Below are positions 6,559-56,144 of a DNA stretch of 64,000 nt, one piece after another. Origin of the DNA: an uncultured Elusimicrobia bacterium (GTDB lineage Bacteria > Elusimicrobiota > Elusimicrobia > UBA1565 > UBA9628); the NCBI GenBank assembly GCA_964600165.1, contig CAZRIP010000005.1, positions 48 to 64,047 of the forward strand, written 5' to 3'. Made by a program: the position numbers and the translations under genes. Under the pieces are notes generated by a model. The model saw only the letters and a program-made list of their open reading frames with translations, was not told the DNA's origin and made no database searches. Position 1 is the stretch's first letter. Each line of letters begins with the position of its first letter.

Positions 6559-6644
6559 AGCGAACGTGTCTAGGATGGGGGGCGGACTTCGCGTGCCTGC
6601 AAGTAGAATGGCAAAGCTTCTAATCCCCTGTTACAATTCGTGGC

Positions 6645-7307: not shown

Positions 7308-7345
7308 TGGTGGGAAAACTCCTGTTGTAGCGCGCCAGGAAATCG

Positions 7346-8128
7346 TCAATAGCTTTCCACGCAGTAAGATTTGCTCGCATCTGTCGCGCCACAGTAAATG
7401 AGATCTATCGCAAATTTTCCTTCCAAATAATAAAGATCTAGTAATGCCCTCTGGTCGTTTTGGCCCCGAAAAAGAACCGCGCCGCGTGGTCCAAGACAAT
7501 CGGTAACTTTCAGATAAGGACTAGGCTTGTCGAACTCCTCGGTGACTGCATAAGTTGAAGATAAATACTGTTGAGCATCATCCAATGCGTTACGGAAGTC
7601 CTGACAGTTGTCCGTAAACTCCTGAAGGTGGACGTAAAGAAGCTTATCTTTCACGGCGTCATCGACTGTTCGGATGGGGAAAAACGCGCTGAGTTCAGAG
7701 GGATGAAATCGCCCATATGCGAGCTTTTTGGATATTGGCCAGGATAAAAAGCCCGTTTGCGACGTTGCGGGCTTATCGCCAAGTGCTTTTCCGGTTTCGT
7801 TGCGCGACATTCCCATGGTCAGGTGAAATGGGAATTCTAATTGGATTTTTTCTGTCGTAGAAGTGGTCTTGTCTTCATGGGAACTTTTCCCGCAGCTTCC
7901 GACGATAAGAATGAGCCCCAGAATGGAAGCTAAGAGTGTGAGAGGAAGAACAATAAGCATCCCAACACCCAGTTTAACGCCGTCAAGAACGGTGTTTCCG
8001 GGCCTGTTTGATTGTGCGGGTTCGTTGGTACCGTGGATGTCGCGCTTGCAGAACCGACAAACGATCGCTTCGCGCCTTATCGTTTCAGCGCAGAACGGAC
8101 ATTTCTTGTTGCCGGTCGGAGCGTCCAC
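7346..8128 (-). CDS. hypothetical membrane protein with N-terminal zinc ribbon (CPFC...CRFC), one TM helix and a Cys-containing extracytoplasmic domain, on a low-GC island
   Basis: The ORF is 260 aa. It contains the CxxC-X13-CxxC motif and a hydrophobic segment GVGMLIVLPLTLLASILGLILIVG. The local GC is low. Confidence 0.5.
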   Translation of the reverse strand: MDAPTGNKKCPFCAETIRREAIVCRFCKRDIHGTNEPAQSNRPGNTVLDGVKLGVGMLIVLPLTLLASILGLILIVGSCGKSSHEDKTTSTTEKIQLEFPFHLTMGMSRNETGKALGDKPATSQTGFLSWPISKKLAYGRFHPSELSAFFPIRTVDDAVKDKLLYVHLQEFTDNCQDFRNALDDAQQYLSSTYAVTEEFDKPSPYLKVTDCLGPRGAVLFRGQNDQRALLDLYYLEGKFAIDLIYCGATDASKSYCVESY

Positions 8129-8174
8129 TTAAATTTGATCCCTATCCGGAACTAATTTTTAAGAAATAGTCCGA

Positions 8175-9834: not shown

Positions 9835-10917
9835 CTACGGCTGCGGAGGCTGCGCGCCCATGGTCACGAGCTGCTTGACCGTCCCGGGATCGTGGGCGAT
9901 CGCGCAGGCCTCGTTGAGGTCGACGAGGTTTTGCTTGATGAGGAAAGCGAGGTACTGGTCCATCGAGATCATCCCGAACTTGCTGCCGGCCTCGATGGCG
10001 GAGTAAAGCAGATGGGTCTTGCCGTCGCGGATGATGCTGCCGATGGCGGACGTCATGCGCATGAACTCCCGCGCGCAGACGCGGCCTTTGCCGTCCTTGC
10101 GCGGCAGCAAGGTCTGGCAGATGACGGCCTGCAGCACGGTCGAGACCTGGATGCGCACTTGCTGCTGCTGGTGCGCGGGGAAGACGTCGATGATGCGGTC
10201 GATGGTCGACGGCGCGTCCTGGGTGTGCAGCGTGCCGAAGCAGAGGTGCCCGGTCTCCGCGGCGGTGATGGCGAGCTGGATCGTCTCCAGGTCGCGCATC
10301 TCGCCGATCAAGATCACGTCGGGGTCTTGGCGCAAGCTGTGCTTGAGGGCCTCGGCGAAGGACTTGGTCTGCTGGCCGACCTCTCTCTGCAGAATGATCG
10401 AGTTTTTGTCTTCATACACGAATTCGATCGGGTCCTCGACGGTCAGGACGTGCTTCTGGTACTTCTGGTTGATGAGCTCGATGAGGCAGGCGAGCGTCGT
10501 CGACTTGCCGGAGCCCGTCGGGCCGGTCACGAGCACGAGCCCGCGCGGCAGATCGACCAAGTTGCGCATCGCCGGCATCAGGCCCAGCTCGTCCGGCGTC
10601 GGGATCCGCGACGAGATCGTGCGCAGCACGGCGGCCACGCCGAGCTTCTGCATGAACACGTTCACGCGAAAGCGCGAGACGCCGGAGAGCGCGATCGAGC
10701 AATCGAGCTCCCAGCGGTCCTCGAAGCGGGCGCGCTGGTCCTCGGTGAGGATCGAGTAGATGAGGTTCTTGCACTCATCGGCGGCGAGCTTCGTCGTGCC
10801 GGGGATCGGCTGGATGGCGCCGTTCAAGCGCACCATCGGCGGCTTGCCGATGACCAGATGAAGGTCCGACGCGCCCATTTGGGCGGTCGACTTCAGGATT
10901 TCAACGAGATCGGGCAT
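9835..10917 (-). CDS. pilT: type IV pilus twitching-motility (retraction) ATPase PilT
   Basis: Walker A GPTGSGKST, the Asp box, Walker B ILIGEMRD and the His box TLHT, with the typical PilT length and N-terminus. Confidence 0.9.
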   Translation of the reverse strand: MPDLVEILKSTAQMGASDLHLVIGKPPMVRLNGAIQPIPGTTKLAADECKNLIYSILTEDQRARFEDRWELDCSIALSGVSRFRVNVFMQKLGVAAVLRTISSRIPTPDELGLMPAMRNLVDLPRGLVLVTGPTGSGKSTTLACLIELINQKYQKHVLTVEDPIEFVYEDKNSIILQREVGQQTKSFAEALKHSLRQDPDVILIGEMRDLETIQLAITAAETGHLCFGTLHTQDAPSTIDRIIDVFPAHQQQQVRIQVSTVLQAVICQTLLPRKDGKGRVCAREFMRMTSAIGSIIRDGKTHLLYSAIEAGSKFGMISMDQYLAFLIKQNLVDLNEACAIAHDPGTVKQLVTMGAQPPQP

Positions 10918-12165: not shown

Positions 12166-13251
<1,086 letters not shown>

Positions 13252-38471: not shown

Positions 38472-40016
38472 ATGAAGCGCCCGCTCGGCGTGCTACTTTT
38501 GGCGGCCTCGGCCTTGGCCGCCTGCGGCCCGCAGAGAGAGAAAGAGCCCAACCACGATTTCTCGCAGGCGACGCCGATCCACGCGGGCAAGGTCGTCGGG
38601 ACGATCTCCTCCCCGGATGAAGCCGATTTCTTCCGCCTCGACGTCGCGCAGCAGCAGACCCTCTCGGTCCACGTCGCGGGCATCCGGGACGTCGATTTCG
38701 TTCTGTCCGTTTATGACGGCAATCGGGTCGAGCTTCTGCGCGCCGACGAGACGGCCGCCGGCGGCGACGAGGAGCTGCTCGACGTCGGCGTCGCGCCGCC
38801 CGGGCCTTACTACATCGTCTTGCGCAACAAGAACCCCAACGCGAACAACCCGAAGCAAGAGTACGAGTTGGACGTCAAGCTCGAGCGGGCGACGAGCCGC
38901 GAGCGCAAGCCCGATTCCTCGGTACAAACCGCGAGTCCTTTGGAGCTTCCGGGCGTCACGCGCGGGCACTTCTGGCCTTCGCAGAATCTCTTGTCCGGAA
39001 GCACCGACTACCTCGCCGAGGATTGGTTCCGCATCGAGGTTTCGACGGGCATCTTCCTCTTGAACATCGACCTGTCCGAGGTCCCGAAGGTCGACTCCGT
39101 GATGGAGGTCTTCGACACCAACGGCTACAAGCTCAAGCAGGTCGACTCCGGCGGCGTCGGCGAGGGGGAGAGCCTCAAGAGCTTCGGCGTGCGCGGTCCC
39201 GCCCTCTACTATCTTCGGCTCTTCGCGAAGAACCGGGCCGGAAATCCCGACGCGCCTTTCGAGCTGTTGACCGAGCTGATCCCGTATCAAGGCCGCACCG
39301 AGTTCGAGCCCAACGACCAGCGCCAAGACGCGACGCCCTTCGAGGGCGATACGATCACCGGCGCGATCGCGCCCGAGGGCGACGCCGATTGGTACAAGGT
39401 CTCCGTGCGCGACCCTCAGCGCCAGCTCTTGCGCGCCTCGGTCACGGGCGTCGAGGGGCTCGATCTGACGTTGACCCTCGCGGACTCGTTCGGCAATCCA
39501 CTCGTGACCGTCGACAACATGGGCGCGGGCCAGCCGGAAGTCTTGACCGGCTACGGCGTGACGGCGGGGGACTACTATCTCGTCGTGCAGGAAAAGTCCG
39601 GGCGCAAGGCCAACCCGCGCGAGCCTTACACGCTGGCCAAGAGCCTGACGCCTTGGCAGCCGGGCCTCGAATGGGAGCCCAACGAGTCGACGGCGACGGC
39701 GCAGGCCCTCAAGGTCGGCGAGTCGGCGGACGGCTACGTGGCGCCCAGCGGCGACGTCGACTATTATCAGTTCAACGTCTATCAAAAGGGCTCTGTCTCC
39801 TTCGAGCTCGCGGGCGTGCTCAACGTCCAGTTCGTCGTCGACCTCTACGATCAGGACGGAAAGCCCGTCCAGGAGTGGACGGCGCCCAAGGCCGGGGAGT
39901 CCATGGCCTTCGATAAGGATTTGGACGCGGGCACTTACTACCTGAAGCTTTCCGGCAAGGAGCCGTCCCAGAACAATGTCCGCGACAAATACAGCCTGCG
40001 GCTCAAGGTCCGTTAA
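38472..40016 (+). CDS. lipoprotein with four tandem pre-peptidase C-terminal (PPC)-like domains
   Basis: Lipobox LAACG. The EPN(D/E)...A....G...(D/E)(A/V)D(W/Y/F)(Y/F) pattern is repeated four times, about 120 aa apart. Confidence 0.7.
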   Translation: MKRPLGVLLLAASALAACGPQREKEPNHDFSQATPIHAGKVVGTISSPDEADFFRLDVAQQQTLSVHVAGIRDVDFVLSVYDGNRVELLRADETAAGGDEELLDVGVAPPGPYYIVLRNKNPNANNPKQEYELDVKLERATSRERKPDSSVQTASPLELPGVTRGHFWPSQNLLSGSTDYLAEDWFRIEVSTGIFLLNIDLSEVPKVDSVMEVFDTNGYKLKQVDSGGVGEGESLKSFGVRGPALYYLRLFAKNRAGNPDAPFELLTELIPYQGRTEFEPNDQRQDATPFEGDTITGAIAPEGDADWYKVSVRDPQRQLLRASVTGVEGLDLTLTLADSFGNPLVTVDNMGAGQPEVLTGYGVTAGDYYLVVQEKSGRKANPREPYTLAKSLTPWQPGLEWEPNESTATAQALKVGESADGYVAPSGDVDYYQFNVYQKGSVSFELAGVLNVQFVVDLYDQDGKPVQEWTAPKAGESMAFDKDLDAGTYYLKLSGKEPSQNNVRDKYSLRLKVR

Positions 40017-46757: not shown

Positions 46758-47576
46758 AGCGGTGCCAGGCACTGAAGTGAATCGTTTGTTGAAAAGGAAG
46801 CGTGTCAGCGCGGCCGGCGGGAAAGAACGACGAGGCGGTTTGAGTCTTTCGTCAGGGTGAGGCCGTCGAGGGAGCCCCAGCGCCGGACCGGCCTGAGCCC
46901 GGCTTGCTTGAGTATCGTTGAAAGGCGGCGCCAATCGTACTGGCGAACCATGAGCATCGCGCGCGCGGGCGCTCGACCCTTACGGAGGATGGTCCATTCC
47001 GATTCGACTCGGGGGTCTCGTCCTTCGACGAGGCGGCTGTCCTCGAGAAGGTAGCTGCCGTCGCCGCGCCGCTGCCATTTCTTCGGCTGGAAGTGTCGGC
47101 GCAGCCAGGCCGCGTTCATGAGATCGATCAGAAATAGGCCTCCCGGTCGCAGCGCGTTGCGAACCTTGCGAAGCGTCCTCAGGTCGTCCCGCGGATCGGC
47201 GAAATAGCCGAAGCTCGTCCAAAGGTTGATGGCTGCGTCGAACTCGGCGTGGAACGGAAGATTGCGCATATCGCCGAGGCGGAAGGAGAGTCGAGGTCCG
47301 GCAAGGCGTTTCGCGGCGGCCAGGTATTCGGGAGTCGAATCGACGCCTAGAACTAAAGCGCCCTTGCGCGCGAGGGCGGCGCTGTGCCGTCCGGTCCCGC
47401 AACAAAGATCCAACACGCGCTGCCCGCGCCGCAGCCCGAGAGCGCGCCAAACGAAGGAAGCCTCTCGGGGAGCCGCCGCGATCGCCTCGGGCTGGCCGGG
47501 CGTGAATATTTCCTCTCGAAAGAATCGACGCCGCCAACTTTTCAATAAACGAGTCACTTTAGTGCCTGGCACCGCT
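46758..47576. mobile_element. putative transposase-less mobile insertion cassette: 36-bp terminal inverted repeats (33/36 identical) flanked by a 5-bp direct repeat TCAAC, carrying one SAM methyltransferase gene
   Basis: IR-L at 46758-46793 reads AGCGGTGCCAGGCACTGAAGTGAATCGTTTGTTGAA. The reverse complement of IR-R at 47541-47576 reads AGCGGTGCCAGGCACTAAAGTGACTCGTTTATTGAA. TCAAC sits at 46753-46757 and again at 47577-47581. Confidence 0.4.
46805..47572 (-). CDS. class I SAM-dependent methyltransferase (passenger of the IR-flanked cassette)
   Basis: SAM motif I VLDLCCGTGRHS and motif post-I LVLGVDS. The GTG start lies inside IR-R. Confidence 0.8.
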   Translation of the reverse strand: MPGTKVTRLLKSWRRRFFREEIFTPGQPEAIAAAPREASFVWRALGLRRGQRVLDLCCGTGRHSAALARKGALVLGVDSTPEYLAAAKRLAGPRLSFRLGDMRNLPFHAEFDAAINLWTSFGYFADPRDDLRTLRKVRNALRPGGLFLIDLMNAAWLRRHFQPKKWQRRGDGSYLLEDSRLVEGRDPRVESEWTILRKGRAPARAMLMVRQYDWRRLSTILKQAGLRPVRRWGSLDGLTLTKDSNRLVVLSRRPR

Positions 47577-47582
47577 TCAACA

Positions 47583-50500
47583 TCAGAACTGGAACGTGAG
47601 GGTGGTGCCGAATTGGTACGAGATGAAGTCTTCCTCCGGGAGGAACTTATGCCATTCGCGCGATAACGCGCCGTTGATCGTCATGCGCAGGTTCTTGGCC
47701 AGCTCGTAATCGGCGCTGGTGTTGAACGTGGCGAGCTTGAAGTTATCCGCCACCGTCACCGGCGAGGAGCGCAGCGCGAGGGACAGCGTCGTCGTCCAGA
47801 TGATCCGGTTCGAGAACAGGATCGTCTTGGTCGAGCCGGGCAGCAGCAGGCCGCGCGGCAGCGCGAGGTCGGCGCGGACGAGAACGCTGGGCGTGATGAC
47901 AGTGACGTTCTGCGAGTAGGTGCCGAAGCCGTCTTGGGTGGTGTCCTTCGAGTAGTCCACCTTGGGCGTGAAGCGGAACTTTTTTACGTCGAAGGTCGTT
48001 TGGACGGTCGCGTCTTGATGCCCGGTCGCTTGGGTGTTCGCGTCGACGAGCAGGTTCTTGTTGGTCGACGAGCGCTGGTTGAAGCTGATCAGGCTGTCGA
48101 AGCGCTTAAAAAGGATCGAGCGCAGGTCCGTGCCGAACGAGGAGTCGGTCAGGATCGACTGACCCTCGTTGTTCGTGCGGTGCGCGGAGTACTTGTAGTT
48201 CATCTGCGTGCTGTTCATCCACTTGAACGTGCCGAAGAGCTTCTCGAGCTGGCTGATGCTCGCGACGAGGTCCGGCAGCGTCGTGGAGACCGTGCGCGAT
48301 TGGGTGTCCGTCGCGTTCGTGCGTTGGATGCTTTCGACGAAGTTGTTCGAGATCGAGATCGTCTTGAGCGAGGCCCAACGCCCGCGCAGGTCGTACGCGT
48401 CGAGCGGCGACCAGCGCTGGGTCGAGTTGAACGTGTCGCGCAGGGTCTGCGTCTGCATTTGGGCCGCCGGCCCCTGCGCGTGGAGCGGCGTGCGGATCCA
48501 CAGCGCGCCCATCGTGTCGAGATCTTTTTCGACCTGATTCCAGACGTCGCCGTCTTGCAGCTGATAGCCGGAGACGATGTTGAGCGTGCGGAAGAGCTTC
48601 GTGCGCCTGGTGATCTCGCCGATGGTGATCGGCAGGCTGATCGAGCCGTTCGAGTTGCGGTTGACGGTCTTGATGTCGCCGACGTTGAAGACGTAGGTCG
48701 AGTTGCCGACCACGAAGGTCGAGATGTTGAGTATGTTGTTCTCTAGCACGTCGATCGAGTAGTTGACCTGGGGATTGAGCCAGGACAGCAGGCGATAGTT
48801 CGATGTAAAGCCTACGGTCTCGCTTTGGGACTTCGGATAGCGGCTGTCGAGCTCGACGCCCGAGGTGAGGTCGTTGCGGTGCTCGGTGACCTTGGTCAGC
48901 GAGTAGTTGGGATTGAAGGTCGAGCCGGTCCACGGGACGAAGGTCAGCCGCGCGCCGACGGTCTGCGTGAGCTCGTTGGTGTTGAAGTCGCCCGGCAACA
49001 GGCGCGACTCGAGCGAGTCGAAGGTGATGTCGTATTTCGAGTAGCTGTAGTTGAGGTCGACGGTCTTCGGCAGGTAGCGGCGCGTGATCGGGACGCCGTA
49101 CTGCAGCGTGCCCGAGTAGGTCTTGCGGTCGTCGGTCCGCGTGAGGAAATCGTAGTTGATCCGATTGCGCGCGTAGTTGAGGTTCAAGCGCGGATAGGCG
49201 CCCAGGCTGAAGTTGCCTTGGGCCGTGCCGGTGAAGTTGACGACCTTGCCCTGTTGGAGCAGGTTGACGCTGTTCGTGAGCCCGCCCGTCAGATTGGTGG
49301 CCGGCGTGTCGGTGACGATGCGCGAGACGTTGAAGGTCAGCGGGAAATACTGCAGCCTGGTGAAGTTGAGGAATCCCGTGTCTTGCTCGTTGTCCTGATT
49401 GAGCACCACGGAGGTCGGCGTCTGGAAGTTACGGTCGACGGAGCGGAATTTCCCGCCGAACGTGGCCCAGCCCGGCACCTCGAAAGTCGCCTCGAGCTTC
49501 TCGGCGTTGCCGACGCGCGGGAGCGGCTGGGCGACGTGGATCTCGTTGAGGTAGACGATGCCCGCGCTCTGGTTGTCGCCGGTGATGCTGTTGCCGTTGC
49601 CGCCGGACGTCGTGTCGGTCGTCTTGCGGACGCCGGCCACGATCTCGGAGACTTGCTGAAGGCTCGGCGTGCCTGAGCTGATGATCGTGGTGCCGGGCGT
49701 GCTGGCCTGCCAGGTATCGGCGACGGCGTTGTGTCCCGAGTCGTTCTGGTAGACCCTGATCTCGCGCCAGCCGACGTAGTTCAGCGGGACGTCGACCTCC
49801 CAGAAGTTGGTGTCGTTGCCGACGCGCAGGAAGAACGTGTGGTCCGTGCAGTTGATCGCGCCGTTGCTCCCGTTGGCGGGCGAGCACGTCGCGCCTTGAC
49901 TATTAGGCGCGTTGGAATAGAGCAGGAAGTTGAAATAGCGGTGCTGGCTGATGTCGATCGCCGTCGTGTATTGCCGCTTGGTCGTCACGACGGCCCCGAC
50001 GCCGTTGACGATCGTCATGCTGGAGAACGCGAGCTCGAGGGCCTGCTCCGAGACGTTCGTGGTGTTCGACTGCTTCTGGAGGTTGCTCAGGCTGCCGTAG
50101 AGGTCGTTGAAGACCTGCGTCGCGTCGCCGCCGGCGTTGTAGATCGGGGTGTAGGTCGGGTTGTCGACGTTGTTGATCGGCGTGACGGTCAGGTTCTCGG
50201 GGCCGACGGGGTTATTGTTGAGAGCCGGGTCGATGGGCTGGCCGTTGAGCCACGTGTTGCCGACCACCGAGATGTTGGCGAATTTGAGCTGTCCGGCGAC
50301 CGGGCTTCCCGCGTGGTGTCGTACGGAGACGCGCAGCTGCTTGATGTTCGTCCAGCGGCTGAGCGTCGCCGTCGAGATGGCGAGCGGGATCTGGAACGTG
50401 TACCAGTTCGTGCCGCCGCCGAAGTCGATGACGGTGTGGACCTTCTGGTCGGTGGTGGCGAAGAGCTGCGTGCTCGTCGGGTTGAAGCCGGTGATGTCGC

Positions 50501-53384
50501 CCGCGTAGCCGAAGTTGTTGCCGTTGCCGTCGTCTTGGTCGAGGCGCGCGTTGACGTTGAGATCCTCGCTGTCGAGGCGGCCGTTGTTGGCGCCGAAGAC
50601 CGTCGAGGGCGTCAGGGAGCCAGCCGGGTTGGTGTAGGTCCAGCCGACGTCCTTGGCCGGCGACAAGATGCCGGTGCAGTCCGTGTCCTCGGTCTTCGGG
50701 ACGTTGTTGACCGTGACGCCGTTGGCGCAGGTCAGCGTCGTGCCGCCCGTCGCGTCCGCGTCCTCGGAGATGCCTCCCAGGCGGAAGTTGATGTCGTTGC
50801 CGGAGACGTCGCCGAGCATCGTGATCTGTAGGATCGTGCGCTGCGAGAAGTCGTTGCCGGCTGACGAGAACGGGAAGACGATCGACTGCTCCTGCGAGGC
50901 CGCGTTCGAGAAGTCGTAGTTGAAGTCGAGCACCTGCTGCGGCTGGTTGTTCGTCGCGGGGGCGCTCGGGTTGATCTGCAAGGCCGGCACGTTCTCGCTC
51001 GTCCACTGCATGCGGGAGGAGTCGCTCGGATCTTGGCTGCCGGTGAACGACGTGCAGGGCGTGGCGGCGGAGCAGCCGGCGCCGCCGGGGTTCGAGGCGA
51101 TGAACCACGCGGAGGCCAAAGTCGAGGCGCCGTCCGACTGCTTGATCCCCTCCATGTTGTCGACGATGGCGAAGGCGTTGAGGTTCAAGTCTTGGCGGCT
51201 CTGGGCGAACTCCCCGCCGAGGAGCTTGACCTTGAACTTCTTGCCGATCTGGAAGTCCTGCCCGTGGGCGTCGAAGTCGTAGACGAGCAGGCTGCGGGAG
51301 AGCTCGGTGATCGAGGGCGTCGTCTGGGACTTGATCCCCGACTCATAAAGCAGGGTCGAGCCCACCTCGTAGTGCTTGCCCCATTCGTAGGACACGCGGG
51401 TGCCGAGCAGCGAGTCGTTGGTCGTCGCGCCGGCGAAGGGCGCCACCTCGTAGCTGATGTCGATCTCGGAGTTCGCGCGGATGCGGTCCTGGTTGAAGAA
51501 CGTCACGAAGCCGGCGTCGTAGTCGATGAAGTAGTCGACGTTGCGGTTGAGCTTGACGTTGTCGAGCAGCACGATCTCCGATTGAGGCACGAGGTTCGGC
51601 TCGAGGAAGAAGGTCTTGAAGCGGTAGTTGTACTCGACGTGGATGATCCGATTGGGGATCGGCGTCGGCGCGTAGATGTTCGGGTCGGGCGTCGAGGGCG
51701 AGCTGTTCGAGACCGAGAACGGCACCAGCAGGTTGAAAAGGCCGTTGGCGAAGTCGACGTTGATCGTGTCCGGATACTTCTGGATCGGGTTCAAGCCCGA
51801 GCCGACCTCGTTGCGGTTCTGGTCCAAGACCTTCAGGATGAAGTTGCCCCGGCCGTTGTCGCCCACGATCTGGGTCTGGCCGATGCTGTAGAAGGTCTTG
51901 AGCTCGCGGTTGTAGCCCACTTCGTCGAGCGTGCAGCTCGAGCACTCGATCGGCTGGTCGCCCGCCGTCTTGATCAGCTTGAAATTGCCGGTGCCGCCGC
52001 CGATGGTCGTCATCGAGGAAGTCTCGACGTCGACGTGCTGATTGGAATTGTCGATGTAGTCGACGGCGACGACGAACTGCGGCTGGAGCTGGTTGCGGAA
52101 GGTGATGATGCCGCGCACGTAGTCGATCGTGTAGTCGAGGCCCGCCTGCATCTGAGCGAACGTGCCCGTGAAGGTCGAGGTGTGCAGCTGCAGGTCGTCG
52201 GCCGTCAGCGCCACGTTGTTCGTGTTGACCAAGCCGGGCTGATTCTGCGAGAGGAAGACGCGCTCGCTGCCGACCTTGATCGGCAGGCGGCTCGGGTTGC
52301 CGAACGTCAGATCGTAATAAGTGCGGCGGACGTAGGACGTGTCCTGAAGGTCGATGGAGGCGAACTGCTGGTTGCCGAAGAACTGCTTCGACTTCGTCGT
52401 GCCCTTGGTGCGGCTGCCGATGAAGCTGCCCTTGAAGCCCTTGTACTTGATGTCGGCGCGGATGCCGAAGAGCTGCTTGTTGTACGAGACGAACTCGGTG
52501 GCGGGCAATGAGAGGTCGATGTCGCCGAAGCTGACGTTTTGGACGACCTCGTTGGGATCTCCGGTGTAGACGACGGAGATGTCCTGGTGGTTCTGCTTCG
52601 TGTCGTCGTAGTCGACGTTGACCGTGATCTTCGGGCCGACTTTGCCCTGCATGCGCAGCTGGAGCTGCTGGGTGATGTCGATGAGGTTGGTCGTCTGCGG
52701 GCGGCCGGAGGTGACCTGCGGGTTGAGGAACTTCTTCTCGGAGTAGGTCACGCCGAGGACCTTGCGGCCGGTCACCGAGAGGCTCGTGCCGTAGGTCGGC
52801 AGCTCGACTTCGGGCGGCGGCGGCTTGGGCGCCGTAGTCGAGGAGATCGAGACCGCCTCGCCGAGGAGGATCGGGATGATCTCGTTCTCGTTGGGCTCGC
52901 GGCCCTCGTCGACGTCGGTCTTCGCGTGCTCGTATTTGTCGAGCGTGTAGTGGAACTCTTGGGTCGACTCGGCGATCTCCCAGTCCAGGAACTCCGGGGT
53001 CTCGGAGGAGACGCCCGCGGCCACCTCGGTCGACTCCTGCTGCTCGAAGATGTGGTCCTTGTCCGTCCGGTCGAGAAGCAGGAACTTGCCCGAGTACGAC
53101 GGCATCAAGATCGGCACCGGCGGCTCGCTGGGCAGATTCTCCGGCGCGGCCGAAGGCTGGCTGGAAGGCTCCTCGGGCTGGGTCGATTCCTGCGGCGCCG
53201 GCGCGGGGGCCTCGGGCGCCTCGGGGGCCGGCTTTTGCGGGGTCTTCGACGGCTCCTGTTGGGGGGCGAAATCCGGGTCGTACGGCGTGGAAAATTGGGC
53301 GTAAGCCGGCACGTTCGCGGGCGCGAGCGTAACTAATAGTGCCAGCCAGAGACAAAACCGCCGATGGGCGCGCTGTAGATTCAA
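47583..53384 (-). CDS. giant (1933 aa) secreted protein, predicted outer-membrane beta-barrel (possibly SprA-like)
   Basis: TTG start. Signal peptide LWLALLVTLAPANVPAYA. Pro/Glu-rich linker. About 1700 aa rich in N/T/S/G/Q/Y with alternating hydrophobic patterns. The C-terminus TLTFQF ends in Phe. Confidence 0.75.
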   Translation of the reverse strand: MNLQRAHRRFCLWLALLVTLAPANVPAYAQFSTPYDPDFAPQQEPSKTPQKPAPEAPEAPAPAPQESTQPEEPSSQPSAAPENLPSEPPVPILMPSYSGKFLLLDRTDKDHIFEQQESTEVAAGVSSETPEFLDWEIAESTQEFHYTLDKYEHAKTDVDEGREPNENEIIPILLGEAVSISSTTAPKPPPPEVELPTYGTSLSVTGRKVLGVTYSEKKFLNPQVTSGRPQTTNLIDITQQLQLRMQGKVGPKITVNVDYDDTKQNHQDISVVYTGDPNEVVQNVSFGDIDLSLPATEFVSYNKQLFGIRADIKYKGFKGSFIGSRTKGTTKSKQFFGNQQFASIDLQDTSYVRRTYYDLTFGNPSRLPIKVGSERVFLSQNQPGLVNTNNVALTADDLQLHTSTFTGTFAQMQAGLDYTIDYVRGIITFRNQLQPQFVVAVDYIDNSNQHVDVETSSMTTIGGGTGNFKLIKTAGDQPIECSSCTLDEVGYNRELKTFYSIGQTQIVGDNGRGNFILKVLDQNRNEVGSGLNPIQKYPDTINVDFANGLFNLLVPFSVSNSSPSTPDPNIYAPTPIPNRIIHVEYNYRFKTFFLEPNLVPQSEIVLLDNVKLNRNVDYFIDYDAGFVTFFNQDRIRANSEIDISYEVAPFAGATTNDSLLGTRVSYEWGKHYEVGSTLLYESGIKSQTTPSITELSRSLLVYDFDAHGQDFQIGKKFKVKLLGGEFAQSRQDLNLNAFAIVDNMEGIKQSDGASTLASAWFIASNPGGAGCSAATPCTSFTGSQDPSDSSRMQWTSENVPALQINPSAPATNNQPQQVLDFNYDFSNAASQEQSIVFPFSSAGNDFSQRTILQITMLGDVSGNDINFRLGGISEDADATGGTTLTCANGVTVNNVPKTEDTDCTGILSPAKDVGWTYTNPAGSLTPSTVFGANNGRLDSEDLNVNARLDQDDGNGNNFGYAGDITGFNPTSTQLFATTDQKVHTVIDFGGGTNWYTFQIPLAISTATLSRWTNIKQLRVSVRHHAGSPVAGQLKFANISVVGNTWLNGQPIDPALNNNPVGPENLTVTPINNVDNPTYTPIYNAGGDATQVFNDLYGSLSNLQKQSNTTNVSEQALELAFSSMTIVNGVGAVVTTKRQYTTAIDISQHRYFNFLLYSNAPNSQGATCSPANGSNGAINCTDHTFFLRVGNDTNFWEVDVPLNYVGWREIRVYQNDSGHNAVADTWQASTPGTTIISSGTPSLQQVSEIVAGVRKTTDTTSGGNGNSITGDNQSAGIVYLNEIHVAQPLPRVGNAEKLEATFEVPGWATFGGKFRSVDRNFQTPTSVVLNQDNEQDTGFLNFTRLQYFPLTFNVSRIVTDTPATNLTGGLTNSVNLLQQGKVVNFTGTAQGNFSLGAYPRLNLNYARNRINYDFLTRTDDRKTYSGTLQYGVPITRRYLPKTVDLNYSYSKYDITFDSLESRLLPGDFNTNELTQTVGARLTFVPWTGSTFNPNYSLTKVTEHRNDLTSGVELDSRYPKSQSETVGFTSNYRLLSWLNPQVNYSIDVLENNILNISTFVVGNSTYVFNVGDIKTVNRNSNGSISLPITIGEITRRTKLFRTLNIVSGYQLQDGDVWNQVEKDLDTMGALWIRTPLHAQGPAAQMQTQTLRDTFNSTQRWSPLDAYDLRGRWASLKTISISNNFVESIQRTNATDTQSRTVSTTLPDLVASISQLEKLFGTFKWMNSTQMNYKYSAHRTNNEGQSILTDSSFGTDLRSILFKRFDSLISFNQRSSTNKNLLVDANTQATGHQDATVQTTFDVKKFRFTPKVDYSKDTTQDGFGTYSQNVTVITPSVLVRADLALPRGLLLPGSTKTILFSNRIIWTTTLSLALRSSPVTVADNFKLATFNTSADYELAKNLRMTINGALSREWHKFLPEEDFISYQFGTTLTFQF

Positions 53385-53467
53385 GCTGTCGTCGGTACTT
53401 CGCGCCCCCGGCGAGGCGCTTCGGCGGGCAGTTTAACAGGGGGGTATTACCCTGTCAAGACTTTGGA

Positions 53468-53538
53468 GCTCTATTAGTTAACGAATCCTTAATAGCGAAA
53501 GGCGGCCGCGCTATTAGGCAACGTTATTCTTAATAGCG
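53468..53538. repeat. two tandem AT-rich hairpin repeats (CTATTAG-N13/14-CTTAATAGCG) between the GT4 stop and the giant-OMP gene start
   Basis: Repeat 1 at 53471-53497 and repeat 2 at 53511-53538, each an imperfect palindrome with a 6-8 bp stem. A TTGACA hexamer (minus-strand orientation) lies at about 53453-53458. Confidence 0.45.
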
Positions 53539-54651
53539 TCACAGGGAGAGCGCGTCGTAGGCGTTCTGGTAGGACTCGATCATGCGCAGCAGCCCGAAGC
53601 GCTCGGCGACGGCCTTTTGGGCCGCGGCGCCCAGGCGCGCGCGCAGCGCGGCGTCGCCGGCGAGAGTCGCCAGAGCCTGGGCGAGCGCGGCCGAGTCTTT
53701 CGGCGGCACGAGCAGGCCGCTTTTCCCGTCGTCGACGACCTCGGGCACGCCGTCGACGTCGGAAGCGACGGGCGGCACGCCCAAGGCCATCGCCTCGAGC
53801 AGCGCGTTCGGCAGCCCTTCCCAAAACGAAGGCAGCGCGAAGACGTCGAAAGCCGAGAGCCAGGAGATCACGTCGTCGCGCTCGCCGAGCAGCCGGACGT
53901 GGTCTTGAAGGCCCCGGCGCCGGACTTGCGCCTCGAGCGCGGCGCGGCGCGGGCCGCCGCCGATGATCGCGCAGCGCGCCGGCAGGCGGCCCTTGATCTT
54001 GGCCATCGCGTCGATGAGCGTGCCGTGGCCTTTCTGGGCGTCCAGGCGCCCGACGCAGCCGATCAGCGCGTCGCCCGGCGCCAGCTTCAGCTCGAGGCGC
54101 TTCTGCGCGCGGTCAGCCTTCGAGACCGGCCAGTTCGCGACGTCGACGCCGTTGTAGATCGTGATGACTTTGTCCGGGGCGTAGCCCAGGCGCTTCAAGA
54201 GATAGCCGCGGCTCGCCTCGCACTCGGCGATCAGGAGGTCGTCGGCCGACTTGAGCGCGCGGTCGACGAAGAGGGTCAAGACCGAGCGCGTGCGGTAGCT
54301 CACGCGCGGCGAGCTCACGAGCTTGAATTTGACCCGGCAGCGGCGCTTGGCCAGGCGCGCGAGCTGGATCGCCTGGTACATGACGGCGTGGACGATGTCC
54401 GGCTTCCGGCTGTCGATGATCCGGGCGAGCGCGTCGACGTGCTTGAGCGTCGGTCGTCCCTTGAGCTCGAGGCTCTCTACCTTGAAGCCGGCCTGGGTCA
54501 GCTTGTGGGCGTAATGACCCGCCGGCTTGAGGCTGACGACGTCGCAGACCTCGAAGCGCTTGGGGTCGAGGAGCGTCGCCAGCGAGTACAGCGTCTTCTC
54601 GGCGCCCCCGAGCGTCGTCGAGGTGCCGACGAAGAGGACGCGGGTCAGTAC
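53539..54651 (-). CDS. family 4 glycosyltransferase (start codon unresolved)
   Basis: GT-B motifs EGLPNALLEAMALGVPPVASDVDGVPEVV (EX7E). The N-terminus LTRVLFVGTSTTLGGAEK has no in-frame ATG/GTG/TTG after the upstream stop; a possible CTG at the CTGA overlap is noted. Confidence 0.75.
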   Translation of the reverse strand, partial: VLTRVLFVGTSTTLGGAEKTLYSLATLLDPKRFEVCDVVSLKPAGHYAHKLTQAGFKVESLELKGRPTLKHVDALARIIDSRKPDIVHAVMYQAIQLARLAKRRCRVKFKLVSSPRVSYRTRSVLTLFVDRALKSADDLLIAECEASRGYLLKRLGYAPDKVITIYNGVDVANWPVSKADRAQKRLELKLAPGDALIGCVGRLDAQKGHGTLIDAMAKIKGRLPARCAIIGGGPRRAALEAQVRRRGLQDHVRLLGERDDVISWLSAFDVFALPSFWEGLPNALLEAMALGVPPVASDVDGVPEVVDDGKSGLLVPPKDSAALAQALATLAGDAALRARLGAAAQKAVAERFGLLRMIESYQNAYDALSL

Positions 54652-56144
54652 GCCCCCCGCGCCGACACCATGGCCGGGACGGTTTTCAGGATGATCTCGA
54701 GGTCGAGGCCGAGCGACCAATGCTCGATGTAGAAGAGATCGAGCGAGAAGCGCTGCTCGCTCGAGACGTCCGAGCGGCCCGAGACCTGCCAGAGCCCGGT
54801 GATGCCGGGCAGGATGTTCATGCGCTTCTTGGCCGTCGCGCCGAACTCCTTTTCGAGCGCCTCGAGCTCGCCCGTGGTCAGAGCGAGCGGGCGCGGGCCG
54901 ACGACGCTCATCTCGCCGCGGATCACGTTCAAAAACTGCGGGAACTCGTCGAGCGAGAAGCGCCGCAGCCATTTGCCGACGCGGGTCACGCGCGGGTCGC
55001 TCTTGGCCTTGAAGAACGCTCCTTTCTGGTCGTTCAAGCCCTGCACGGCGGAGATCTTCGACTCGGCGTTGGCGACCATCGTGCGGAACTTGAAAGCCTC
55101 GAAGACCTTGCCGCGCAGGCCGTAGCGCTTCTGCTTGTAGAGCACGGGCCCGTCGCTGTCGAGCTTGATGAGCGCCGCGACGATCAGAAACGGAATACCC
55201 GTTACCGCCAGCACCAGTCCCGCGAAGGCGAGGTCGAAAATCCTTTTCGCCAGAAAGTTCGTGCGCGTCATGGACGTGTGCTGGATCCGGTAGGCGGGCA
55301 GCCCCAGGCTGCGGTCCATCTGGACCTCGCCTAGGCGGATCTCGAGAAGGTCCGGCACCATCTTGAAGCCGACGCCTGCGGCGTCGCAGACCTCGGCCGC
55401 GGCGAGGATCCGCTCGTGGCCGAGCGACGAGCGCAAGAGGATCATCTCGAAGTAGCGGCGCTCGGAGAACGCGCGCTCGAGCTCATGGGGCGCCGGCAGC
55501 TCCGCGAACTCGCGGATGAAGGCGCCGGGGTGCCGAACGCTGATGCGCTGCTTGATCTCGTCGGCGACGGCTCCGGTCCCGACGATAACGACCGGCAGCG
55601 CGGCCTCGAGAGTCGAGAGGAAAGAGTCGACCGCCAAGACGAACGCCTGGCTCACGCAGAGGAACGCGCAGCCCAGCGGCATCGCCAGGACGAGCATCAT
55701 GCGCGAGTATTCGAGGCGAGAGTAAACATAGGCCGCGAGCAGCGCCGCTCCCGCGCCCATGATCGAGCCCTTGACGATCTGCAAGAAGCGGTCGGCCGCG
55801 CCCATCCACGGATCGCTGTAGAGGCGGCACGAGTACCAGAAGATGCCGAGCCAGAGGGGCACGATGGCGTAGAGCAGCTTGTGGTAGAGCTCCCAACTCG
55901 GGACGTTGCCGACGATGGGGAACCGAACGATCACCGCGTCCAAGCCGAAGCGCAGCAGGTACGCGGCGTAGTAGGCGAGCGCCACGGCGGCGGCGTCGAG
56001 CGTCAAGTGAAGCGTCGTGCGCAGCGCGTGGCGCAGCCACGGGGGCAGCGCTCCGGCCGTGGCGGGGACGAGCCGGGGAGCCGACGGCGCGGCCTTGGCC
56101 TGGATGCGGTGGCCCATGAGGCCGATTATATCAATTTGGCCCAA
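54645..56144 (-). CDS. polyprenyl-phosphate hexose-1-phosphate transferase (WbaP/WcaJ-like initiating sugar transferase)
   Basis: Five TM helices and a C-terminal bacterial sugar transferase domain, KFRTM...DEFPQFLNVIRGEMSVVGPRP. Confidence 0.85.
   Translation of the reverse strand: MGQIDIIGLMGHRIQAKAAPSAPRLVPATAGALPPWLRHALRTTLHLTLDAAAVALAYYAAYLLRFGLDAVIVRFPIVGNVPSWELYHKLLYAIVPLWLGIFWYSCRLYSDPWMGAADRFLQIVKGSIMGAGAALLAAYVYSRLEYSRMMLVLAMPLGCAFLCVSQAFVLAVDSFLSTLEAALPVVIVGTGAVADEIKQRISVRHPGAFIREFAELPAPHELERAFSERRYFEMILLRSSLGHERILAAAEVCDAAGVGFKMVPDLLEIRLGEVQMDRSLGLPAYRIQHTSMTRTNFLAKRIFDLAFAGLVLAVTGIPFLIVAALIKLDSDGPVLYKQKRYGLRGKVFEAFKFRTMVANAESKISAVQGLNDQKGAFFKAKSDPRVTRVGKWLRRFSLDEFPQFLNVIRGEMSVVGPRPLALTTGELEALEKEFGATAKKRMNILPGITGLWQVSGRSDVSSEQRFSLDLFYIEHWSLGLDLEIILKTVPAMVSARGAY

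What the first reader, a model, noticed from the sequence alone, without database searches (positions are those of the whole stretch)
47583..53384. 5.8 kb gene for a 1933-aa predicted giant outer-membrane beta-barrel, next to the mobile-cassette insertion
The protein has a signal peptide and a 70-aa Pro/Glu-rich linker. A very long region then shows the composition and alternating-hydrophobic pattern of transmembrane beta-strands. The C-terminus ends in Phe (TLTFQF), as in Omp85-type substrates. Few bacterial families make barrels this large. The type IX secretion translocon SprA, at about 2400 aa, is the best-known example, but no other T9SS component is visible in the window. The gene starts with TTG. 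It sits immediately downstream of the glycan gene cluster and is preceded by unusual AT-rich hairpin repeats.
Basis: partly seen in the sequence, partly recalled or inferred. Interest (0 to 1): 0.55.

Follow-up and report, generated by a model that had tools for sequence, protein, structure and literature searches.

The report
Elusimicrobial SprA-like giant outer-membrane barrel
This 5.8 kb gene encodes a shortened, very divergent relative of SprA/Sov, the giant outer-membrane pore of the type IX protein secretion system. It comes from an Elusimicrobiota bacterium, a phylum outside the group where that system is thought to occur.

Summary
Window 47583-53384 (minus strand) is one 1933-aa ORF with a TTG start. 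It has a signal peptide, a Pro/Glu-rich linker of about 55 aa, and a C-terminal ...TLTFQF.

- TIGR04189 (SprA/Sov) matches three collinear segments (E 9e-43, 146 bits), below NCBI's 200-bit cutoff.
- AlphaFold models of both halves match only F. johnsoniae SprA strongly (Foldseek E 1e-28 to 7e-49; next hits 8e-6 and 7e-4).
- A family profile aligns over 1540 columns with a protein that passes the cutoff.

The gene belongs to a short (1660-1950 aa) clade found in at least 183 species genomes; the best 80 are mostly labelled Elusimicrobia. All listed database names are "hypothetical protein".

Context:
- Neighbours in relatives are LPS or glycan genes: lptF/lptG, or Bac_transf-DegT-GT4 clusters as here.
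- In four relatives the gene lies next to PorV/PorQ-family genes. In three of them a protease with a T9SS type A C-terminal sorting domain is also there; the fourth has a borderline candidate.
- No GldK/L/M/N, PorU or PorZ gene was found, and whole genomes could not be searched.

Best reading: a T9SS-like outer-membrane protein export pore. Its energy source and its link to LPS are unknown. It is a new variant of a known kind.

The parts
47583..53384 (-). CDS of the 1933-aa SprA-like outer-membrane protein (TTG start; the stop codon is 47583-47585)
   Evidence: ORF list and translation. GC3 is 0.93. More than 120 full-length homologs. TIGR04189 E 9e-43.
53298..53384 (-). Signal peptide, aa 1-29 (…APANVPAYA|QF)
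   Evidence: Read from the sequence. The hydrophobic core and an A-x-A-Q-F consensus are conserved in the family. Assigned by inspection; no predictor was run.
53109..53297 (-). Mature N-terminus. It has the conserved motif QFSxPYDPDF (aa 30-39), then a Pro/Glu-rich linker (about aa 38-92).
   Evidence: Composition scan. D36 and P37 are at least 90% conserved, and the consensus reads AQFSxPYDPDF. A role as a periplasmic docking arm is inferred by analogy with the SprA N-terminus, which SkpA and SprE bind (PMC10994853).
52314..52820 (-). Most conserved core, aa 189-357. It matches SprA model positions 101-254.
   Evidence: Mean column identity is 0.79-0.92 in this stretch. TIGR04189 best stretch is aa 202-357 against model 99-254.
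51339..51596 (-). Second SprA-homologous segment, aa 597-682, against model positions 603-687
   Evidence: Segment scan against TIGR04189, E 5e-15.
49776..50591 (-). Third SprA-homologous segment, aa 932-1203, against model positions 1082-1332. It lies in a middle region with jelly-roll (CBM-like) domains and four Cys pairs.
   Evidence: Segment scan, E 1e-14. CBM11 and CBM30 structural sub-hits. Cys 481/484, 771/777, 886/903 and 1167/1179.
47586..49514 (-). C-terminal strand-rich region, aa 1291-1933, with about 28 long antiparallel strands. It ends in the beta-signal-like …FGTTLTFQF.
53430..53458 (-). Sigma-70-like promoter: TTGACA, 17 nt, TAAACT, with a TG upstream of the -10 element. Its -10 hexamer ends about 45 nt upstream of the TTG start.
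   Evidence: Consensus scan found one site in the region, against 0.6 expected. This is a consensus match only.
53468..53538 (.). Two ~40-nt-spaced copies of an A+T-rich inverted repeat (CGCTATTA … TAATAGCG). They start right after the stop codon of the upstream GT4 gene.
   Evidence: Repeat finder. The repeat is not conserved upstream of the orthologs in 83 relatives. Function is unknown; it could be a terminator or an operator.
46805..47572 (-). SAM-dependent methyltransferase. It starts 10 nt after the stop codon, on the same strand, so it is probably co-transcribed.
   Evidence: Pfam Methyltransf_25, E 2.5e-19. It is orthologous to a methyltransferase near the gene in L004 and L006, where the orientation is opposite.
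53539..63351 (-). Upstream same-strand glycan/O-antigen-type cluster: GT4, Bac_transf (WbaP-like), hexapeptide acyltransferase, GT2, Wzy_C, GT4, NeuB and a B12-radical SAM gene
   Evidence: Pfam scans. The equivalent Bac_transf-DegT-GT4 block precedes the ortholog in L001, L004 and L006 (DegT-GT4 in L002), and in the gene-family clusters.

Best explanation
The gene encodes a divergent, shortened member of the SprA/Sov superfamily. SprA is the single-chain giant beta-barrel that forms the outer-membrane translocon of the type IX secretion system. The host is an Elusimicrobiota bacterium.

Shown:
- The protein is homologous to SprA along its length.
- It has an SprA-like predicted fold.
- It has the sequence hallmarks of an outer-membrane protein.
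- It is the ortholog of a gene found in Elusimicrobia genomes spanning 33-70% GC.

Inferred:
- It sits in the outer membrane as a capped pore.
- Sec-exported proteins carrying a C-terminal sorting domain leave the periplasm through it. PorV/PorQ-type small barrels hand them over, as in Bacteroidota.
- The conserved mature N-terminus (QFSxPYDPDF) on its Pro/Glu-rich arm reaches into the periplasm to dock partner proteins. This parallels the SprA N-terminus, which is held by SkpA and SprE.
- The persistent placement beside lptF/lptG or O-antigen-type glycan genes suggests that export is coordinated with LPS or surface glycan. Cargo may be anchored to it, as A-LPS anchors cargo in Porphyromonas.

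Unknown: whether a GldLM/GldKN-type motor and ring drive the system.

My confidence that it is an SprA-homologous giant outer-membrane barrel is about 0.93. My confidence that it works as a T9SS-like protein export pore is about 0.6.
For: Homology to SprA:
- TIGR04189 scores E 9e-43.
- Three collinear matches: aa 204-357 to model 101-254, aa 597-682 to 603-687, and aa 932-1203 to 1082-1332.
- hhalign of family profile A1 against P0215 gives probability 100, E 1e-83 and 1540 aligned columns.
- P0215 passes the TIGR04189 cutoff at 309 bits. It also hits F. johnsoniae SprA 6H3I_A at E 2e-21.
- The C-terminal profile, which TIGR04189 cannot see, hits P0215 at E 1e-20 and P0262 at E 8e-7 (315 bits on TIGR04189).

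Fold:
- The aa 734-1933 model has pLDDT 83.6. Its top four Foldseek hits are all SprA chains at E 1e-33 to 4e-28; the next hit is 8e-6.
- The aa 185-1384 model has pLDDT 79.2. SprA chains score E 7e-49 to 1e-34; the next hit is 7e-4.

Outer-membrane targeting: a signal peptide and a near-invariant C-terminal TFQF.

T9SS partners next to orthologs:
- L010, L092 and L094 are three genomes with the same block. The order is a TraF_2-like barrel, an M6 protease, a PorV/PorQ-family protein, lptG and lptF, then the SprA-like gene.
- The M6 proteases end in a TIGR04183 type A sorting domain (24.4, 23.7 and 27.2 bits; cutoff 23).
- The PorV/PorQ proteins score 114, 123 and 124 bits (cutoff 90).
- L019 is a 68% GC relative. 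There the SprA-like gene is followed by a 178-aa gene, PorV/PorQ (144 bits), a 202-aa gene, a 1621-aa beta-propeller protein and comF. The propeller protein has a C-terminal TIGR04183-like domain at 22.3 bits.
- Jackhmmer seeded on a PorV/PorQ gene found PorV/PorQ- or TraF_2-like barrel genes within 10 kb in 8 of about 84 distinct loci.

Phylum-wide conservation: 183 species genomes encode a relative. The best 80 are labelled Elusimicrobia/Elusimicrobiota or a subgroup, except seven 'MAG: bacterium' records and one labelled Candidatus Endomicrobium trichonymphae.

LPS and glycan synteny: lptF/lptG lie at positions -1 and -2 in about 24-33 loci. GT4, DegT and Bac_transf lie at -1, -2 and -3 in the high-GC group.
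Against: - The protein scores below the curated SprA cutoff (146 bits against 200) and has no Pfam SprA_N hit.
- PDB sequence searches do not reach SprA directly, even with a profile.
- It is about 470 aa shorter than F. johnsoniae SprA.
- I could not fold the full chain, so closure of the barrel, the strand count and the lateral opening are not shown.
- The NCBIfam and Pfam scans run here, and the Pfam labels that came with the looked-up loci, showed no GldK/L/M/N, PorU, PorZ, SprE or SprT gene. Only part of the ~1.9 Mb of flanking DNA was annotated that way. The rest of any genome could not be searched.
- TXSScan found no T9SS, and no other secretion system, in Elusimicrobium minutum (PMC4793230 Table S3).
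- PorV/PorQ adjacency occurs in a minority of loci and not in this window.
- The most consistent neighbours are LPS and glycan genes, which fits a different role equally well.
Confidence: 0.62

Rival explanations
1. The protein is an SprA-fold barrel with a role in envelope biogenesis rather than protein secretion. It might act as an outer-membrane conduit or platform for LPS, O-antigen or another surface glycan, working with LptFG or the Wzy-type cluster.
For: - lptF/lptG are the commonest immediate neighbours (33 of 84 loci).
- In the high-GC group, including this window, the gene closes a Bac_transf/GT4/Wzy_C cluster on the same strand.
- In an unclassified genome the SprA homolog P0262 directly follows an LptD_2 gene.
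- No T9SS motor genes were seen anywhere.
- The gene lies among housekeeping genes, for example next to murA and fatty-acid synthesis genes in L009.
Against: - No SprA-family protein is known to carry glycan or lipid (my knowledge of the field).
- PorV/PorQ and sorting-domain cargo genes, which are specific to protein export, sit in the same lptFG-containing block in three genomes.
- Synteny with LPS genes also fits T9SS cargo being anchored to LPS.
- The structural match is to SprA (E 1e-33), not to LptD (E about 1e-3) or to polysaccharide porins.
Confidence: 0.22
2. The protein is a large general outer-membrane pore or structural protein that kept the SprA fold but lost or never had a dedicated export function. 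It could serve uptake of large substrates or act as an envelope scaffold.
For: - Weak structural similarity to TonB-dependent and SusC-type transporters and to the SlpA outer-membrane protein.
- The gene was found in at least 183 species genomes and often sits among housekeeping genes.
- No partner genes lie in this window.
Against: - Those structural hits cover only about 250-415 residues and reflect generic barrel similarity.
- There is no plug domain and no TonB-box family hit.
- Repeated linkage to PorV/PorQ and cargo genes is not expected for a passive pore.
Confidence: 0.12
3. The protein is a secreted or surface beta-helix or adhesin-type protein, not a membrane barrel. This is the refuting case the first reader named.
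For: Thr/Ser/Asn/Gln-rich composition, and jelly-roll/CBM-like subdomains in the middle region.
Against: - Both models are dominated by long antiparallel strands and match SprA, not beta-helices.
- The C-terminal aromatic beta-signal is near-invariant.
- The CBM-like domains correspond to the middle region, which also matches SprA model positions 1082-1332.
Confidence: 0.02

Closest known systems
SprA (Flavobacterium johnsoniae) / Sov (Porphyromonas gingivalis): the T9SS outer-membrane translocon (TIGR04189; PDB 6H3I, 6H3J, 8GL6, 8GL8)
   Same: - Single-chain giant outer-membrane beta-barrel fold with folded inserts.
- Collinear sequence homology in the N-terminal two thirds.
- The C-terminal third matches by structure and through intermediate sequences.
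- An extended N-terminal arm precedes the barrel.
- PorV/PorQ and sorting-domain cargo genes lie beside orthologs in some genomes.
   Different: - 1933 aa against 2403 aa. The family range is 1660-1950 aa.
- Below the curated family cutoff, with no Pfam SprA_N hit.
- No direct sequence hit to SprA in the PDB.
- The host phylum lies outside the Fibrobacteres-Chlorobi-Bacteroidetes group.
- No GldKLMN, PorU, PorZ, SprE or SkpA gene was found.
- Conserved neighbours are lptFG, comF or glycan genes.
- The N-terminal arm is a Pro/Glu-rich linker with its own conserved QFSxPYDPDF motif.
Short SprA homologs that pass TIGR04189 (P0215, 2023 aa; P0262, 1975 aa) from unclassified metagenome contigs
   Same: - Similar length.
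- Full-length alignment with the Elusimicrobia family (hhalign probability 100, 28% identity).
- They share the C-terminal region that canonical SprA profiles do not detect in this protein.
- P0262 also sits beside an LPS gene, LptD_2.
   Different: - They score 309-315 bits on TIGR04189, against 99-152 for Elusimicrobia members.
- The P0262 contig carries a SusC-type TonB receptor with a CarboxypepD_reg domain. I take this, from memory and untested here, as typical of Fibrobacteres-Chlorobi-Bacteroidetes lineages.
LptD (the LPS outer-membrane translocon)
   Same: A large outer-membrane barrel linked to LPS transport genes. The gene here is often adjacent to lptF/lptG.
   Different: Structural similarity is only generic (Foldseek E about 1e-3 against 1e-33 for SprA). 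There is no LptD family hit. The protein is more than twice the size of LptD.

Membership tests
SprA/Sov translocon family (NCBIfam TIGR04189, Pfam PF14349 SprA_N) | Whole-protein score at or above the curated TIGR04189 cutoff (200 bits) | tested here: not met
   145.8 bits, E 9e-43. Other Elusimicrobia members score 99-152 bits. P0215 and P0262 pass at 309 and 315 bits.
SprA/Sov translocon family (NCBIfam TIGR04189, Pfam PF14349 SprA_N) | Pfam SprA_N domain | tested here: not met
   No Pfam family at E up to 1. A few homologs carry a precomputed PF14349 hit, marked 'faint' for the one looked up.
SprA/Sov translocon family (NCBIfam TIGR04189, Pfam PF14349 SprA_N) | Collinear homology to bona fide SprA along the chain | tested here: met
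   Three collinear TIGR04189 segments. hhalign of A1 against the cutoff-passing P0215 gives 1540 columns at probability 100. P0215 hits 6H3I_A at E 2e-21.
SprA/Sov translocon family (NCBIfam TIGR04189, Pfam PF14349 SprA_N) | SprA three-dimensional fold | tested here: met
SprA/Sov translocon family (NCBIfam TIGR04189, Pfam PF14349 SprA_N) | Closed 36-strand barrel with an extracellular cap and a lateral opening | tested here: inconclusive
SprA/Sov translocon family (NCBIfam TIGR04189, Pfam PF14349 SprA_N) | Size of about 2300-2500 aa | tested here: not met
   1933 aa. Full-length proteins hit by the C-terminal profile are 1660-2023 aa. F. johnsoniae SprA is 2403 aa.
Type IX secretion system (as a system) | PorV/PorQ-family carrier barrel in the same genome | not testable with these tools
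   None in the 64 kb window. Present beside the ortholog in L010, L092, L094 and L019 at 114-144 bits against a cutoff of 90. NCBI already names such proteins in Elusimicrobia MAGs.
Type IX secretion system (as a system) | Cargo proteins with a type A or type B C-terminal sorting domain | tested here: inconclusive
   - In the window, lipoprotein 38472-40016 scores 27.1 bits on TIGR04183. No single domain passes, and the match lies on the fourth of four PPC repeats, so it is probably a cross-match.
- In relatives, M6 proteases in three genomes pass the cutoff at the extreme C-terminus.
- The L019 propeller protein is borderline at 22.3 bits.
Type IX secretion system (as a system) | GldL/GldM (PorL/PorM) motor and GldK/GldN (PorK/PorN) ring | not testable with these tools
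   - None in the window or among the annotated genes of the looked-up loci.
- The single GldK-model hit (120 bits, cutoff 350) is a generic FGE-sulfatase domain in a kinase fusion.
- Whole genomes could not be scanned.
- TXSScan found no T9SS in E. minutum.
Type IX secretion system (as a system) | PorU sortase and PorZ attachment complex | not tested
   I had no seed sequences and no way to scan genomes. The only PorZ-model hits are the shared sorting-domain part of the model.
Type IX secretion system (as a system) | Host in the Fibrobacteres-Chlorobi-Bacteroidetes superphylum | tested here: not met
   Every homolog that carries an organism name is from an Elusimicrobia/Elusimicrobiota MAG. 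Nearly all of the 80 related genome loci are labelled Elusimicrobia. The restriction of T9SS to that superphylum is stated in reviews (abstracts) and.
LptD / TonB-dependent transporter / BamA-type barrels | Family HMM hit or best structural match | tested here: not met
   No such Pfam or NCBIfam hit. Structural matches are 25 or more orders of magnitude weaker than SprA and cover only 250-415 residues.

The most novel reading that the evidence does not exclude
Elusimicrobiota, a phylum in which standard tools detect no protein secretion system at all, may use a minimal T9SS-like outer-membrane export pathway. It would be built on a roughly 1700-1950-aa SprA-like pore plus PorV/PorQ-type carriers. 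It would work without the GldLM/GldKN motor and ring, being energised or organised differently, possibly in concert with the LptFG LPS-export machinery beside which it is encoded. That would make it either an ancestral, simpler form of the T9SS translocon or an independent offshoot.
Probability: 0.2. Interest if true: 0.8.

Novelty: new variant of a known kind. Interest (0 to 1): 0.55.

Why it matters
- The T9SS is treated as a hallmark of Bacteroidota and their Fibrobacteres-Chlorobi-Bacteroidetes relatives. Its translocon SprA is the largest known single-chain outer-membrane barrel.
- A short SprA clade found across Elusimicrobia lineages, which curated family models miss and databases label "hypothetical protein", widens the known range of this machine.
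- In three genomes it is linked to PorV/PorQ and sorting-domain cargo genes, with a fourth carrying PorV/PorQ and a borderline cargo candidate. That gives a candidate answer to how Elusimicrobia secrete proteins. TXSScan found no secretion system in the two Elusimicrobia genomes it covered, E. minutum and the termite-group 1 phylotype Rs-D17.
- It offers a naturally trimmed version of the pore, about 20% smaller, for structural and mechanistic work.
- The recurrent linkage to lptFG and O-antigen-type clusters is a testable lead on how T9SS-type export and LPS are coupled.
- If the motor genes prove absent, it would bear on how the translocon is energised and how the system evolved.

Tried and rejected
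1. Direct PDB sequence searches gave no hit at E up to 1 or 10. I tried the full protein, the 29-sequence profile and the conserved N-terminal core. P0262 also gave nothing. The sequence link to solved SprA works only through P0215.
2. Pfam on the full protein gave nothing.
I reran it on the C-terminal 643 aa.
4. The weak NCBIfam hit to phage tail tube family 6XGR (E 0.0016, 17.9 bits against a cutoff of 60) was dismissed as a short beta-rich cross-match.
5. The window lipoprotein 38472-40016 was considered as T9SS cargo. I set it aside because the score comes from PPC repeats and no single domain passes.
6. A jackhmmer search for more sorting domains, seeded on the L010 protease tail across 1.9 Mb of loci, found only the seed.
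7. A PorV HMM found nothing in the window.
8. The upstream palindromes were searched for elsewhere in the window with one pattern whose spacing may not fit the copies, and by hexamer count upstream of the orthologs. I found no other copies and no conservation, so no claim is made about their function.
9. The FGE-sulfatase domain of the L019 kinase fusion hits the GldK model at 120 bits against a cutoff of 350. I rejected it as GldK.
10. Literature searches for T9SS or SprA in Elusimicrobia found no paper that describes it.
11. A beta-helix or adhesin fold, LptD, TonB-dependent transporters and BamA were considered and rejected on the structure searches.
Full report
**1. The observation**

Window 47583-53384 holds a single 1933-codon ORF on the minus strand that starts with TTG. 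It is clearly coding. Third-position GC is 0.93, against 0.53 and 0.43 at positions 1 and 2, in a window of about 66% GC. More than 120 full-length homologs at 50-71% identity cover it from end to end.

The product has these features:
- A typical signal peptide (…APANVPAYA|QF).
- A mature N-terminus with a family-conserved motif, QFSxPYDPDF.
- A Thr/Ser/Asn/Gln-rich body.
- Four closely spaced Cys pairs in the middle region.
- A C-terminal …FGTTLTFQF. Its last four residues are at least 90% conserved in a 29-sequence alignment and invariant in the 89-sequence alignment.

Upstream on the same strand lies a glycan cluster: GT4, Bac_transf, hexapeptide acyltransferase, GT2, Wzy_C, GT4, NeuB and a B12-radical SAM gene. 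The 154-nt spacer contains two copies of a CGCTATTA/TAATAGCG inverted repeat, followed by a sigma-70-like promoter (TTGACA, 17 nt, TAAACT). A methyltransferase gene starts 10 nt after the stop codon, on the same strand.

**2. What the protein is: sequence**

Pfam finds nothing. NCBIfam TIGR04189, "T9SS outer membrane translocon Sov/SprA", matches at E 9e-43 and 145.8 bits, below the curated cutoff of 200.

I scanned the protein in six pieces. The match consists of three collinear blocks:
- aa 204-357 to model positions 101-254
- aa 597-682 to model positions 603-687
- aa 932-1203 to model positions 1082-1332

The last 643 aa give no match.

An exhaustive HMMER search of a profile of those 643 aa against 1.84 billion cluster representatives found only 169 proteins at E up to 1e-3. 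The full-length ones are 1660-2023 aa. None has the 2300-2500 aa of canonical SprA.

Two of the weaker hits connect the family to SprA proper:
- P0215 (2023 aa, E 1e-20) and P0262 (1975 aa, E 8e-7) pass the TIGR04189 cutoff at 309 and 315 bits.
- P0215 hits F. johnsoniae SprA (PDB 6H3I chain A, 2403 aa) at E 2e-21 by plain phmmer.
- The 29-sequence family profile aligns with P0215 over 1540 columns. That spans profile positions 163-1823 against residues 220-1999, with 28% identity, probability 100 and E 1e-83.

The protein is therefore homologous to SprA-family proteins along essentially its whole length. It is too diverged for direct detection against the solved SprA sequence; searches with the protein, the profile and the conserved core all returned nothing.

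**3. What the protein is: structure**

The predictor accepts at most 1200 residues. I folded two overlapping pieces, each with an 89-row alignment.

| Piece | Mean pLDDT | Foldseek E to SprA chains (8GL6, 8GL8, 6H3I, 6H3J) | TM-score (query) | Next-best hit |
|---|---|---|---|---|
| aa 734-1933 | 83.6 | 1e-33 to 4e-28 | 0.52-0.53 | SusC, E 8e-6 |
| aa 185-1384 | 79.2 | 7e-49 to 1e-34 | 0.41-0.45 | a CBM11 domain, E 7e-4 |

What I could not show is closure of the barrel, the strand count and the lateral opening, because the chain could not be folded whole.

**4. Whose gene it is, and how widespread**

Every homolog that carries an organism name comes from an Elusimicrobia/Elusimicrobiota metagenome-assembled genome (MAG). 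All the listed names are "hypothetical protein".

More distant members include gut Elusimicrobiaceae (Candidatus Proelusimicrobium excrementi) and one MAG labelled Caldiserica.

A scan of one genome per species found 183 genomes with a relative. The best 80 are labelled Elusimicrobia/Elusimicrobiota or a subgroup, apart from seven plain 'MAG: bacterium' records and one labelled Candidatus Endomicrobium trichonymphae. Their loci range from 33 to 70% GC. The window therefore comes from a high-GC Elusimicrobiota bacterium, and the gene occurs in Elusimicrobia lineages spanning that whole GC range.

**5. Surroundings**

I clustered the predicted genes of 84 loci. This gave two recurrent arrangements.
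- In about a third of the loci, lptF and lptG (LPS-export permease genes) lie directly upstream, usually divergent. A comF-like gene lies directly downstream.
- In the high-GC group, a Bac_transf-DegT-GT4 glycan block precedes the gene, often with Wzy_C and GT2. This window follows that pattern.

In this window the comF-like gene is at 35660-36349. About 11 kb of other genes lie between it and the SprA-like gene. The methyltransferase, the HEAT-repeat protein and the 581-aa protein downstream are orthologs of genes at the same locus in L006, some inverted. They are not obviously a mobile insertion.

In an unclassified genome, the cutoff-passing SprA homolog P0262 directly follows an LptD_2 gene. 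The common theme is LPS and the envelope.

**6. T9SS partners**

The window has none. Pfam and NCBIfam scans of about 50 window ORFs (most against one of the two libraries only) gave no GldK/L/M/N, PorU, PorV, PorQ, PorZ, SprE or SprT.

One lipoprotein (38472-40016) has four PPC repeats and scores 27.1 bits on the type A sorting-domain model TIGR04183 (cutoff 23). No single domain passes, and the match lies on the fourth repeat. I read it as a cross-match.

Relatives are more informative.
- Three genomes (L010, L092, L094) share one conserved block. The order is a TraF_2-like barrel, an M6 metalloprotease, a PorV/PorQ-family protein, lptG and lptF, then the SprA-like gene.
  - The protease's last ~70 residues pass TIGR04183 (24.4, 23.7 and 27.2 bits).
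  - The PorV/PorQ protein scores 114, 123 and 124 bits against a cutoff of 90.
- In L019, a 68% GC relative, a cassette sits between the SprA-like gene and comF. It encodes a 178-aa protein, PorV/PorQ (144 bits), a 202-aa protein and a 1621-aa beta-propeller protein. The propeller protein has a C-terminal TIGR04183-like domain at 22.3 bits, just under the cutoff.
- The same PorV/PorQ plus propeller cassette occurs elsewhere away from the SprA-like gene (L093).
- Jackhmmer seeded on a PorV/PorQ gene found PorV/PorQ- or TraF_2-like barrel genes within 10 kb in 8 of about 84 distinct loci.
- NCBI already names several "PorV/PorQ family protein [Elusimicrobia bacterium]".

No motor or ring genes were seen among the loci whose genes were annotated. 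A GldK-model hit in L019 is a generic FGE-sulfatase domain fused to a Ser/Thr kinase (120 bits, cutoff 350). Whole genomes could not be searched with these tools.

**7. Literature**

Reviews place the T9SS in Bacteroidota or the Fibrobacteres-Chlorobi-Bacteroidetes superphylum (abstracts). TXSScan found T9SS only in Bacteroidetes (PMC4793230). Its Table S3 lists Elusimicrobium minutum Pei191 and the termite-group 1 phylotype Rs-D17 with zeros for every secretion system searched.

Full-text searches combining Elusimicrobia or Elusimicrobiota with T9SS or type IX secretion returned no paper that describes such a system.

In F. johnsoniae the extended SprA N-terminus is held by an SkpA trimer and contacts SprE (PMC10994853). 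This is a plausible analogy for the conserved motif-plus-linker arm seen here.

**8. Mechanism**

Shown:
- SprA-superfamily homology and fold.
- Outer-membrane targeting signals.
- Presence across Elusimicrobia lineages of 33-70% GC.
- Linkage to LPS and glycan genes.
- Linkage to PorV/PorQ genes in four genomes, and to cargo passing the sorting-domain cutoff in three of them (the fourth is borderline).

Inferred:
- The protein forms a capped outer-membrane pore.
- Sec-exported proteins with a C-terminal sorting domain leave the periplasm through it, handed to PorV/PorQ-type carriers.
- The N-terminal arm docks periplasmic partners.
- Export is coordinated with LPS or a surface glycan, possibly as the anchor for cargo. 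This would parallel A-LPS anchoring in Porphyromonas, which I cite from my own knowledge of the field.

Unknown: the energy source.

The main rival is that the SprA fold serves envelope or glycan biogenesis. I put that at about 0.2, because the most consistent neighbours are lptFG and glycan genes and no motor was found.

**9. Novelty and verdict**

This is not a new kind of machine. It is a new variant of a known one. The clade is short and strongly diverged. It fails the curated SprA model, carries only "hypothetical protein" names in the listings seen here, and sits in a phylum outside the accepted range of the T9SS.

It is of moderate interest:
- It extends the range of the translocon.
- It offers a smaller natural version of it.
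- It gives a concrete candidate for protein export in a phylum with no recognised secretion system.

The decisive missing piece is a genome-wide check for the motor, ring, sortase and cargo genes.

Noticed in passing
window 35660-36349 (-): A comF/GntX-like gene. In about 26-32 of 84 related loci comF lies directly downstream of the SprA-like gene. Here about 11 kb of other genes separate them (PBP1a, a 4xPPC lipoprotein, a response regulator, an anti-sigma/TPR protein, a 581-aa protein, a HEAT-repeat protein and a methyltransferase). This points to a local rearrangement.
   Followed up: partly
window 38472-40016 (+): A lipoprotein (lipobox LAAC) made of four PPC (pre-peptidase C-terminal) repeats. 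It scores 27.1 bits on the T9SS type A sorting-domain model (cutoff 23) with no single domain passing. This is probably a repeat-driven cross-match, but automatic annotation might label it T9SS cargo.
   Followed up: partly
window 53468-53538 and 53430-53458: Two A+T-rich CGCTATTA/TAATAGCG inverted repeats lie immediately after the GT4 stop codon. A good sigma-70-like promoter for the giant gene follows. The repeats are absent upstream of the orthologs in the other loci examined.
   Followed up: partly
window 5300-8130: A low-GC stretch (0.55 against about 0.66) with three ORFs (5313-6623, 6645-7307, 7346-8128) that hit no NCBIfam family. It may be foreign DNA.
   Followed up: no
window 9835-10917, 12166-13251, 34474-35640: Three PilT/T2SSE-type ATPase paralogs within 25 kb. 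Two of them flank a cNMP-binding protein and RsfS.
   Followed up: no
L019 15963-23004: A cassette sits between the SprA-like gene and comF: a 178-aa protein, PorV/PorQ (144 bits), a 202-aa protein, and a 1621-aa beta-propeller protein with a borderline T9SS sorting domain. The PorV/PorQ, ~205-aa and propeller part recurs in L093 away from any SprA-like gene, so it behaves as a separate unit.
   Followed up: partly
L019 5517-9779 (-): A 1420-aa fusion of TPR repeats, a Ser/Thr kinase and a C-terminal FGE-sulfatase-type domain, divergent from the SprA-like gene. The FGE part gives a sub-threshold GldK hit (120 bits against 350).
   Followed up: no
L094 10001-11398; proteins P0300, P0302-P0304: Elusimicrobial PorV/PorQ-family barrels carrying an extra C-terminal LpoB/CsgG/TolB-like domain. 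I do not know this architecture from Bacteroidota.
   Followed up: no
L002 and L004 15562-17350: In some high-GC relatives, an RcpC/CpaB-domain protein (~270 aa) and an unannotated ~292-aa protein follow the SprA-like gene after 5 nt. The window has no homolog of either.
   Followed up: partly
L007 7527-15928: In an unclassified 1.85 Mb contig, a cutoff-passing short SprA (P0262, 1975 aa) directly follows an LptD_2-family gene. This is another link between SprA-type genes and LPS transport genes.
   Followed up: no
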